A DNA stretch of 64,000 nt from the human T2T-CHM13v2.0 reference genome, Homo sapiens, in the NCBI GenBank assembly GCA_009914755.4, contig CP068257.2:14912001-14976000 (forward strand), written 5' to 3'. Below are positions 20,796-21,170 of the stretch, one piece after another; the first letter of the stretch is position 1; each line of letters opens with the position of its first letter. The notes beneath the pieces were generated by a model. It saw only the letters and a list, made by a program, of their open reading frames with translations, searched no databases and was not told the origin of the DNA. Both the position numbers and the translations under genes were made by a program.

Positions 20796-21170
20796 ATATA
20801 TGTAAATTGTACATATATAATATATGTAAATTGTACATATATAATATATGTAAATTGTACATATATAATATATGTAAATTGTACATATATAATATATGTA
20901 AATTGTACATATATAATATATGTAAATTGTACATATATATGTAAATTGTACATATATAAGATATGTAAATTGTACATATATTATATATGTAAATTGTACA
21001 TATATAATATATGTAAATTGCACATATATAATATATGTAAATTGTACATATATAATATATGTAAATTGTACATATATAATATATGTAAATTGCACATATA
21101 TTATATGTGTAAATTGTACATATATAATATGTGTAAATTGTACATATATAATATATGTAAATTGTCATAT
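20796..21170. repeat. AT-rich minisatellite, 24-bp unit (tgtaaattgtacatatataatata), about 16 tandem copies
   Basis: Direct head-to-tail repetition with point variants (tgtaaattgcacatat, tgtgtaaattg) and one 18-bp shortened copy at about 20940. The unit is a near-palindrome (atatatgta-aattg-tacatatat). ORFs 20765-21203 are translations of the repeat. Confidence 0.95.

What the first reader, a model, noticed from the sequence alone, without database searches (positions are those of the whole stretch)
20796..21170. AT-rich 24-bp minisatellite (16 copies) with a near-palindromic unit: a likely VNTR and fragile-site-like sequence
Seen in sequence. Sixteen head-to-tail units of tgtaaattgtacatatataatata carry sporadic variants (a T-to-C change in tgtaaattgcacatat in 2 units, a tgtg in 2 units, and one 18-bp unit). 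The unit reads almost the same on both strands (atatatgta-aattg-tacatatat), so the array can extrude hairpins or cruciforms. Established knowledge: AT-rich minisatellites of this kind (for example the FRA16B and FRA10B repeat classes) are length-polymorphic and can be replication-fork barriers. The supplied ORFs 20765-21203 are artefacts of this repeat.
Basis: partly seen in the sequence, partly recalled or inferred. Interest (0 to 1): 0.5.

Follow-up and report, generated by a model that had tools for sequence, protein, structure and literature searches.

The report
Ordinary AT-rich hairpin-forming minisatellite
This is a real but ordinary 400-bp stretch of non-coding primate DNA made of about 16 copies of a 24-bp AT-rich unit that folds into small hairpins; it probably varies in length between people, but it is far too short and too imperfect to be a chromosomal fragile site.

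Summary
Tandem Repeats Finder gives one array at 20770-21170: period 24, 16.9 copies, 92% matches, score 665. The unit is A + ATATATGTA + AATTG + TACATATAT, a perfect 9-bp stem with a 5-nt loop. Corrections: the short unit is 19 bp, not 18, and two variant types were missed.

The single strand folds strongly as DNA (-91.6 kcal/mol; z -11.7). It is the best-folding and most easily melted 400 bp in the window. Two controls temper this. When dinucleotide-preserving shuffles of the unit are tiled, 32 of 150 fold as well, so composition plus tandem repetition explain most of it. A whole-array cruciform would cost about +216 kcal/mol, against +10 for a perfect palindrome of the same size. Hairpins on transiently single strands are credible; a large cruciform is not.

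At 401 bp the array matches normal FRA16B alleles (7-12 x 33 bp). It is far below fragile alleles (>5 kb at FRA10B, up to 2000 copies at FRA16B), and its unit is not similar to the FRA16B unit.

Copy-number polymorphism could not be tested, because no second allele or orthologue was found in any collection. The overlapping ORFs are repeat artefacts.

Verdict: a neutral, probably length-variable AT-rich minisatellite of low interest.

The parts
20770..20794 (.). Degenerate leading unit (AATATAGTAAATCTTCACTTATATT), the decayed 5' edge of the array
   Evidence: Included in the array by TRF. 20 of 26 aligned positions are identical to the consensus.
20795..21156 (.). Core of the minisatellite: 15 units (fourteen of 24 bp, one of 19 bp) of AATATATGTAAATTGTACATATAT. 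Each unit is a spacer A, a 9-nt arm, an AATTG loop and the complementary 9-nt arm.
   Evidence: TRF period 24, 92% matches, score 665. Unit-by-unit listing. Unit hairpin -4.9 kcal/mol. Array MFE -91.6 kcal/mol, z -11.7.
21157..21170 (.). Truncated, degenerate last unit (GTAAATTGTCATAT), the 3' edge of the array
20922..20940 (.). The single 19-bp unit (5-bp deletion). It creates a spacerless 14-bp perfect palindrome, TACATATATATGTA (20930-20943), which is the global symmetry centre of the array.
   Evidence: Anchor spacing of 19 bp. Inverted repeat I4 has arms 20796-20936 and 20937-21077 with 0 nt between them. One perfect 7+7 palindrome with no spacer.
20973..21015 (.). Longest perfect inverted repeat in the array: 19-bp arms around the AATTG loop. 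It is produced by the A-to-T change at the spacer position of unit 8.
   Evidence: arm 19, spacer 5. A local cruciform here would cost about +12 kcal/mol.
21085..21108 (.). Mosaic unit 13. It carries three variants, each shared with a different unit: GCACAT with unit 10, TTATAT with unit 8, ..ATGT with unit 14.
   Evidence: The pattern implies recurrent mutation or exchange between units (inference).
20788..21168 (-). 126-aa ORF spanning the whole array. It and the four other overlapping ORFs (20765-20977 -, 20793-21095 -, 20807-20944 +, 20946-21203 +) are translation artefacts of the repeat.
   Evidence: 8-residue periodic translations. No exact record. No homologue. The only hit of the + strand ORF is an unrelated AT-rich repeat in a metagenome contig.

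Best explanation
This is a neutral, non-coding AT-rich minisatellite in unique primate (almost certainly human) DNA, either intronic or intergenic. About 16 head-to-tail copies of a 24-bp unit arose from a local AT-rich sequence and are kept similar by ongoing unit gain, loss and exchange (replication slippage, unequal sister-chromatid exchange, or short conversion tracts).

Each unit is a 9-bp-stem hairpin, and neighbouring units can also pair with one another. Whenever the array is single-stranded (lagging-strand template, repair intermediates), it can fold into hairpins of one to many units. This misaligns the strands and favours changes in unit number, so the array is probably length-polymorphic. 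In the duplex it is the most easily melted segment in the region.

It has no sequence-specific function. At its present size of 401 bp it is not a fragile site, and it cannot extrude a large cruciform.

Shown here: the array, its unit anatomy, its variants, its single-strand folding, its low duplex stability, the cost of a cruciform, and the absence of coding potential.

Inferred: the slippage and exchange mechanism, and the length polymorphism.
For: - Array and purity.
- Unit hairpin: -4.9 kcal/mol, z -3.6.
- Array folding as DNA: MFE -91.6 kcal/mol against -50.5 +/- 3.5 for shuffles, z -11.7. In the long hairpin, runs of 13, 9 and 13 paired bases are each separated by a single unpaired base.
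- It is the best-folding 401-nt segment in the window (mean -36 +/- 9.4, next best -67.7). It folds better than a length-matched tiling of the FRA16B unit (-66 to -68) but much less well than (AT)n (-145).
- It is the least stable duplex in the window: -396 to -402 kcal/mol against -498 +/- 28.
- Signs of turnover rather than frozen decay: five identical units in a row at the 5' end, variants shared between non-adjacent units, a mosaic unit 13, and decayed edge units.
- Non-coding, unique context: Alu and L1 fragments all around; flanks unique within the window; no Rfam family; no exon found by searching 195 non-repeat ORF segments against PDB sequences, while the L1 ORF2 positive control hit at E = 1e-66.
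- Published analogues. MSY1 has a 25-bp, 75% A+T, hairpin-forming unit and mutates at about 3% per generation, with hairpin-assisted slippage proposed for length changes (PMC2599865). A 921-bp FRA16B fragment forms secondary structure, stalls replication and suffers unit-scale deletions and expansions on SV40 plasmids (PMC2875025).
Against: - Length polymorphism was not observed. No second allele or orthologue could be retrieved.
- The base rate for minisatellite loci being variable is only about one in five in a short-read survey. That figure is an acknowledged undercount and is dominated by short arrays (PMC8096271).
- Hairpin propensity is not specific to this unit: 32 of 150 tiled dinucleotide-preserving shuffles fold as well. 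The palindromic unit may be incidental to instability.
- About 2% of core positions differ from the consensus and the edge units are decayed, so the array may be old and turning over slowly.
- Whether the array lies inside an ancient transposable element could not be checked, because no repeat library is available.
Confidence: 0.8

Rival explanations
1. One reading: in its present form the array is a fragile-site-like replication-fork barrier of the FRA16B/FRA10B class.
For: It has the same general class of sequence (AT-rich minisatellite, 86% A+T). It folds better per nucleotide than a length-matched FRA16B tiling (-91.6 against -66 to -68 kcal/mol). A FRA16B fragment of only 921 bp measurably stalled replication on plasmids (PMC2875025).
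Against: - At 401 bp it has the size of normal, non-fragile FRA16B alleles (7-12 x 33 bp = 230-400 bp). Fragility needs >5 kb at FRA10B and up to 2000 copies at FRA16B.
- The unit is not similar to the FRA16B unit (124 of 500 shuffles score as well).
- Many arbitrary AT-rich tandem arrays fold equally well.
Confidence: 0.08
2. The array is a cruciform-extruding palindrome like the PATRRs. It would extrude a four-way junction in duplex DNA and be cut, promoting deletions or translocations.
For: - The size (about 400 bp) and AT-richness fall in the PATRR range (about 190-600 bp).
- Arms of about 141-144 nt are 83% complementary without gaps.
- There is a spacerless 14-bp perfect centre at 20930-20943.
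- It is the most easily melted duplex in the window.
Against: - A whole-array cruciform costs +216 kcal/mol, against +10 for a perfect palindrome built from the same half-array.
- Mismatches recur every 9-13 bp from the centre outwards.
- A PATRR22 quasi-palindrome with a 9-nt spacer and four mismatches near the centre neither extruded under physiological conditions nor was unstable, and the 190-bp PATRR17 was negligible (PMC1851657).
- Only 23-43-bp local cruciforms are affordable, at about +12 kcal/mol.
Confidence: 0.03
3. The array is a functional cis element: a DNA unwinding element, a matrix attachment region, or a tandem cluster of transcription-factor sites. Each unit contains ATGTAAAT, one mismatch from the octamer ATGCAAAT; that resemblance is recalled from memory and was not tested.
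For: It is the least stable duplex in 64 kb, and it carries 16 regularly spaced copies of the same motif.
Against: There is no evidence of constraint. Most variants weaken the hairpin or alter the motif at random, and the edges decay. Nothing related was found elsewhere. Low duplex stability follows from composition alone.
Confidence: 0.04
4. The array is the internal tandem repeat of an old transposable element rather than a repeat that arose on the spot.
For: Many human minisatellites lie inside transposable elements (general knowledge). The flanks could not be compared with a repeat library.
Against: There are no terminal inverted repeats or target-site duplications around the array; the best left-right flank match is 12 bp at E = 0.05. 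The flanks are unique within a window that holds many Alu and L1 copies. The unit occurs nowhere else in the window or in the scanned collections.
Confidence: 0.05

Closest known systems
MSY1 (DYF155S1), the AT-rich Y-chromosomal minisatellite
   Same: The unit is almost the same length (25 against 24 bp), it is AT-rich, and the unit is predicted to fold into a hairpin. Variant units partly sit in blocks. Hairpin-assisted slippage and short conversion events are the proposed mutation mechanisms (PMC2599865).
   Different: MSY1 never shows units of non-standard length, whereas this array has one 19-bp unit. This array is more AT-rich (86% against 75%). MSY1's mutation rate of about 3% per generation is measured; nothing is measured here. 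No sequence comparison was possible because the MSY1 unit was not available to me.
FRA16B (33-bp) and FRA10B (~42-bp) AT-rich minisatellites of rare distamycin A/BrdU-inducible fragile sites
   Same: An AT-rich minisatellite whose single strands fold into stable structures. The size equals that of normal FRA16B alleles.
   Different: There is no significant unit similarity. The array is not expanded: 0.4 kb against >5 kb, or up to 2000 copies. No cytogenetic evidence is available.
Palindromic AT-rich repeats (PATRR11, PATRR17, PATRR22)
   Same: AT-rich, a few hundred bp long, self-complementary overall, and with a perfectly symmetric short centre.
   Different: PATRRs are near-perfect single palindromes, not tandem arrays. 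Here the arms are interrupted every 9-13 bp, and a whole-array cruciform costs +216 against +10 kcal/mol. That imperfection is the feature shown to abolish PATRR activity (PMC1851657).
Generic human minisatellite / VNTR loci (TRF-defined, pattern of 7 bp or more)
   Same: It meets the operational definition. A unique array with unique flanks corresponds to a 'singleton' locus in the sense of PMC8096271.
   Different: At 401 bp it exceeds short-read lengths, so surveys of that kind could not genotype the reference allele. Its variability is therefore unknown from what I could read.

Membership tests
Minisatellite / VNTR | Head-to-tail tandem array of a unit of roughly 7-100 bp | tested here: met
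   TRF: period 24, 16.9 copies, 92% matches, score 665.
Minisatellite / VNTR | Copy number varies between individuals | not testable with these tools
   No second allele or orthologue was found in the protein collection, viral, metagenome or genome contigs. No human pangenome is available.
FRA16B/FRA10B-class rare fragile site repeat | AT-rich minisatellite able to form secondary structure | tested here: met
   GC fraction 0.142. MFE -91.6 kcal/mol, z -11.7. Caveat: 32 of 150 tiled shuffled units fold as well.
FRA16B/FRA10B-class rare fragile site repeat | Expansion to several kb (>5 kb at FRA10B; up to 2000 copies at FRA16B) | tested here: not met
   The array is 401 bp with 16.9 copies. Thresholds come from PMC9714581 and PMC2875025.
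FRA16B/FRA10B-class rare fragile site repeat | Unit related in sequence to the 33-bp FRA16B motif | tested here: not met
   Local alignment score 28 against shuffled-unit mean 23.1 +/- 6.9; 124 of 500 shuffles score as high.
FRA16B/FRA10B-class rare fragile site repeat | Cytogenetic gap inducible by distamycin A or BrdU; delayed replication | not testable with these tools
   This needs cell culture cytogenetics.
PATRR (palindromic AT-rich repeat) | Near-perfect palindrome of about 190-600 bp with perfect central symmetry | tested here: not met
   Arms are 83% complementary without gaps. The perfect centre is only 14 bp. Cruciform cost is +216 kcal/mol against +10 for a perfect palindrome control. 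The criterion comes from PMC1851657.
PATRR (palindromic AT-rich repeat) | Recurrent translocation or deletion breakpoints at the centre | not testable with these tools
   There are no breakpoint data, and the locus is not identified.
MSY1-like hairpin-unit AT-rich minisatellite | AT-rich unit of about 25 bp predicted to fold into a hairpin | tested here: met
   The 24-bp unit has a 9-bp perfect stem and a 5-nt loop: -4.9 kcal/mol, z -3.6, 1 of 200 shuffles as good.
MSY1-like hairpin-unit AT-rich minisatellite | Units of non-standard length never observed | tested here: not met
   Unit 6 is 19 bp. The criterion comes from PMC2599865.
MSY1-like hairpin-unit AT-rich minisatellite | High germline mutation rate (percent per generation) | not testable with these tools
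   This needs pedigree or sperm typing.
Protein-coding gene (the supplied ORFs) | Non-periodic translation with homologues elsewhere | tested here: not met
   Translations are periodic low-complexity strings. No exact record. Homology searches gave nothing, or only an unrelated repeat.

The most novel reading that the evidence does not exclude
The array could be the short, unexpanded allele of one of the rare fragile sites that the review read here lists as still not mapped, such as the distamycin A-inducible FRA16E or the distamycin A/BrdU-inducible FRA17A (PMC9714581). Rare human haplotypes would then carry kilobase expansions. A milder variant concerns the A-to-T changes at the spacer position, which turn the recurring A.A mismatch into a T.A pair and create a perfect 19-bp-arm inverted repeat at 20973-21015. 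These could be footprints of hairpin-templated (quasipalindrome template-switch) mutation acting in the human germline and gradually perfecting the array.
Probability: 0.02. Interest if true: 0.55.

Novelty: new member of a known kind. Interest (0 to 1): 0.12.

Why it matters
It matters little. AT-rich, hairpin-forming minisatellites are a well-described class, and this example shows nothing outside that class. Its practical value is as a probable length-polymorphic marker and as a locus where short-read assembly and genotyping will be unreliable, since the 401-bp self-complementary array is longer than short reads.

The one mildly instructive point is methodological. The usual shuffle z-score (-11.7) greatly overstates how special the 'palindromic unit' is. 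Tiling shuffled units shows that composition and tandem repetition already give most of the folding energy. A duplex-versus-hairpin energy balance separates hairpin propensity (real) from cruciform propensity (poor).

Tried and rejected
1. Finding other alleles through the repeat-derived ORFs.
- Exact look-up of the 126-aa ORF found nothing.
- A homology search with the 85-aa + strand ORF gave one hit. It turned out to be an unrelated AT-rich tandem repeat (unit about 22 bp, roughly five copies) in a JGI metagenome contig.
- A homology search with the 126-aa - strand ORF found nothing.

2. Scanning public collections.
- The unit 21-mer gave 0 hits in viral contigs.
- In metagenome contigs it gave 3 single, non-tandem chance matches in an unrelated sequence.
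- A 32-mer spanning one full unit gave 0 hits in genome contigs.
- The unique right-flank 25-mer gave 0 hits in genome contigs and in viral contigs.

3. Identifying the locus or gene.
- 195 non-repetitive stop-to-stop ORF segments of at least 55 aa were searched against all PDB sequences in three batches. Only the L1 ORF2 fragment hit, which served as a positive control. The locus therefore stays unidentified.
- Rfam gave no hit.

4. A literature search for the unit sequence found no paper.

5. Transposon origin: there are no terminal inverted repeats or target-site duplications, and the flanks are unique within the window.

6. Rejected readings:
- Coding ORFs (periodic artefacts).
- Satellite or centromeric DNA (a single 0.4-kb array in unique, Alu-rich DNA).
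- miRNA-like hairpins (9-bp AU stems, no Rfam hit). The RNA fold is strong (-139.5 kcal/mol, z -7.7), but there is no evidence of transcription or of any RNA role.

Full report
**What is there**

The sequence at 20770-21170 is a single tandem array. Tandem Repeats Finder gives period 24, 16.9 copies, 92% matches, 3% indels, score 665 and consensus AATATATGTAAATTGTACATATAT. It is the strongest tandem repeat in the window by a wide margin. Its 19-nt core occurs nowhere else in the 64 kb: 26 matches at up to 3 mismatches, all inside the array, against 0.06 expected.

Cutting at the GTAAATTG anchor gives 16 units:
- Units 1-5, 9, 11, 12 and 15 are identical to the consensus.
- Unit 6 is 19 bp (a 5-bp deletion).
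- Unit 7 has AAGATAT.
- Units 8 and 13 have TTATAT.
- Units 10 and 13 have GCACAT.
- Units 13 and 14 end in ..ATGT.
- Unit 16 is truncated.
- A further decayed unit lies at 20770-20794.

**Anatomy of the unit**

The unit is a spacer A, the arm ATATATGTA, the loop AATTG, and the exactly complementary arm TACATATAT. Alone it folds as a 9-bp stem with a 5-nt loop (-4.9 kcal/mol, z -3.6).

The arm of one unit is also complementary to the arm of the next unit across the single spacer A. The array therefore alternates X and X' throughout and is self-complementary as a whole. Ungapped arms of 141-144 nt are 83% complementary. In the minimum-energy fold, runs of 13, 9 and 13 paired bases are each separated by a single unpaired base.

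**How strong is the structure, and compared with what?**

Folded as single-stranded DNA, the 401 nt give -91.6 kcal/mol, against -50.5 +/- 3.5 for dinucleotide shuffles (z -11.7). The flanks give z +0.8 and -1.05.

Further comparisons:
- It is the best-folding 401-nt segment in the window (mean -36 +/- 9.4, next best -67.7).
- It folds better than a length-matched tiling of the FRA16B 33-mer (-66 to -68).
- It folds much less well than (AT)n (-145).

Shuffling the whole array also destroys its periodicity, so I ran a fairer control: shuffle the unit, tile it, and fold. With dinucleotide-preserving shuffles the mean is -68.7 +/- 22.8. 32 of 150 shuffles reach the real array's value and 16 of 150 reach the perfect-consensus value (-99.5). 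With mononucleotide shuffles, 3 of 150 do. Likewise, the array's 83% gapped identity to its own reverse complement is only about 2.4 sd above tiled shuffled units (0.71 +/- 0.05).

Conclusion: the hairpin propensity is real, but most of it follows from TA-rich composition plus tandem repetition. The palindromic arrangement of this particular unit adds a modest amount.

**Hairpin or cruciform?**

I used one parameter set for duplex and hairpins. Converting the duplex array into two hairpins costs +216 kcal/mol. A perfect palindrome built from the left half of the array (same size and composition) costs +10. Only local structures are affordable: about +12 kcal/mol for a single unit (23 bp), or for the 43-bp element at 20973-21015.

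Published PATRR work fits this. Extrusion at physiological salt needs length and perfect central symmetry. A 593-bp quasi-palindrome with a 9-nt spacer and four mismatches near the centre neither extruded nor was unstable, and the 190-bp PATRR17 was negligible (PMC1851657).

Hairpins on transiently single-stranded DNA are therefore the credible structure, and a large cruciform is not. The array is also the least stable duplex in the window (-396 to -402 against -498 +/- 28 kcal/mol), as expected for 14% G+C.

**Fragile-site comparison**

FRA16B is a 33-bp AT-rich minisatellite with 7-12 copies on normal chromosomes and up to 2000 copies on fragile ones (PMC2875025). FRA10B is a ~42-bp unit that is fragile above 5 kb (PMC9714581).

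The present array is 401 bp, which is the size of a normal FRA16B allele. Its unit shows no significant similarity to the FRA16B unit (124 of 500 shuffles score as well). It therefore shares the sequence class with these sites but fails the defining feature, expansion.

A 921-bp FRA16B fragment did stall replication and suffer unit-scale deletions and expansions on SV40 plasmids. A weak local effect on replication and an elevated slippage rate here are plausible, but inferred.

**VNTR question**

I could not test copy-number variation:
- The repeat-derived ORFs are not on record.
- Homology searches returned only an unrelated metagenomic AT-rich repeat, or nothing.
- Scans for the unit or the unique flank in viral, metagenome and genome contigs returned nothing relevant.

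Indirect evidence points to turnover rather than a frozen relic:
- Five identical units lie in a row.
- Variants are shared between non-adjacent units.
- Unit 13 is a mosaic carrying three variants, each shared with a different unit. That needs recurrent mutation or exchange between units.
- The edges are decayed.

In a large short-read survey, about one minisatellite locus in five was variable. The authors call this an undercount, and arrays longer than the reads could not be genotyped, which would apply to this one (PMC8096271).

The closest analogue is MSY1: a 25-bp unit, 75% A+T, a hairpin-forming unit, and mutation at about 3% per generation (PMC2599865). My estimate that the array is length-polymorphic in humans is about 0.7-0.8, as inference.

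**Context**

The window is primate DNA with about 35% G+C, many Alu copies and an L1 ORF2 fragment. The immediate flanks are unique within the window. They show no terminal inverted repeats or target-site duplications, and there is no Rfam family.

I searched 195 non-repetitive ORF segments of at least 55 aa against PDB sequences. Only the L1 ORF2 fragment hit, at E = 1e-66. No exon was detected, and the locus could not be named.

**Details seen along the way**

- The A-to-T change at the spacer position (units 8 and 13) is the one substitution that turns the recurring A.A mismatch into a T.A pair. In unit 8 it creates a perfect inverted repeat with 19-bp arms (20973-21015).
- This is the kind of change produced by quasipalindrome template switching (PMC7202029 and PMC7954356, abstracts listed). 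The chance of seeing at least one such change among about four substitution events is roughly 5% by my estimate, so it is suggestive only.
- The other variants weaken pairing, so there is no sign of selection for the hairpin.
- The 5-bp deletion in unit 6 creates a spacerless 14-bp palindrome, which is the symmetry centre of the whole array.

**Verdict**

This is a genuine, ordinary, neutral AT-rich minisatellite with a hairpin-forming unit. It is probably length-variable. It is not a fragile site at its present size and not a cruciform-forming palindrome. It is a new instance of a well-known kind, and interest is low.

Noticed in passing
window 20973-21015 (also unit 13, 21085-21108): The A-to-T change at the inter-arm spacer converts the recurring A.A mismatch into a T.A pair. 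In unit 8 it yields a perfect 19-bp-arm inverted repeat. This is the signature expected from quasipalindrome template-switch mutation, but the chance expectation is about 5%, so it is only suggestive.
   Followed up: partly
window 21085-21108: Unit 13 is a mosaic of three variants, each shared with a different unit (units 10, 8 and 14). This implies recurrent mutation or conversion/unequal exchange within the array.
   Followed up: partly
window 20930-20943: The 5-bp deletion in the 19-bp unit makes a spacerless 14-bp perfect palindrome, TACATATATATGTA. It is the global symmetry centre of the array (arms 20796-20936 and 20937-21077).
   Followed up: yes
window 57760-58743: An L1 ORF2 fragment lies on the - strand at 57760-58152; it matches PDB LINE-1 ORF2p residues about 949-1104 at E = 1e-66. 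An adjacent ORF on the + strand (58141-58743) looks by eye like another piece of L1 ORF2 but was not searched. If so, this would be an inverted or rearranged L1 insertion.
   Followed up: partly
window 59883-60241: A 180-bp x 2.0 tandem repeat at 84% identity with Alu-like sequence. It is probably two adjacent Alu copies or an Alu duplication.
   Followed up: no
window 46193-46341: An 80-bp unit is duplicated in tandem (1.9 copies, 94% identity, TRF score 270). It is unrelated to the AT-rich array.
   Followed up: no
window 18455-18497 and 27787-27830: Two (CA)n/(AC)n dinucleotide microsatellites of about 22 repeats flank the region. They are likely polymorphic markers in their own right.
   Followed up: no
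window 20625-20650: A short C-rich run followed by a T run (ccccccaccgcccccgtttttttt) lies about 120 bp upstream of the array. It is an isolated G+C-rich spot in very AT-rich DNA.
   Followed up: no
L001 1-115 (JGI metagenome 3300005037, contig Ga0072491_1029687): An unrelated AT-rich tandem repeat (unit about 22 bp, TATATATATACAATTTGTAAGT, roughly five copies) produces a called 'gene' whose product resembles the artefactual ORF of this array. It shows that such repeats seed spurious proteins in public collections.
   Followed up: yes
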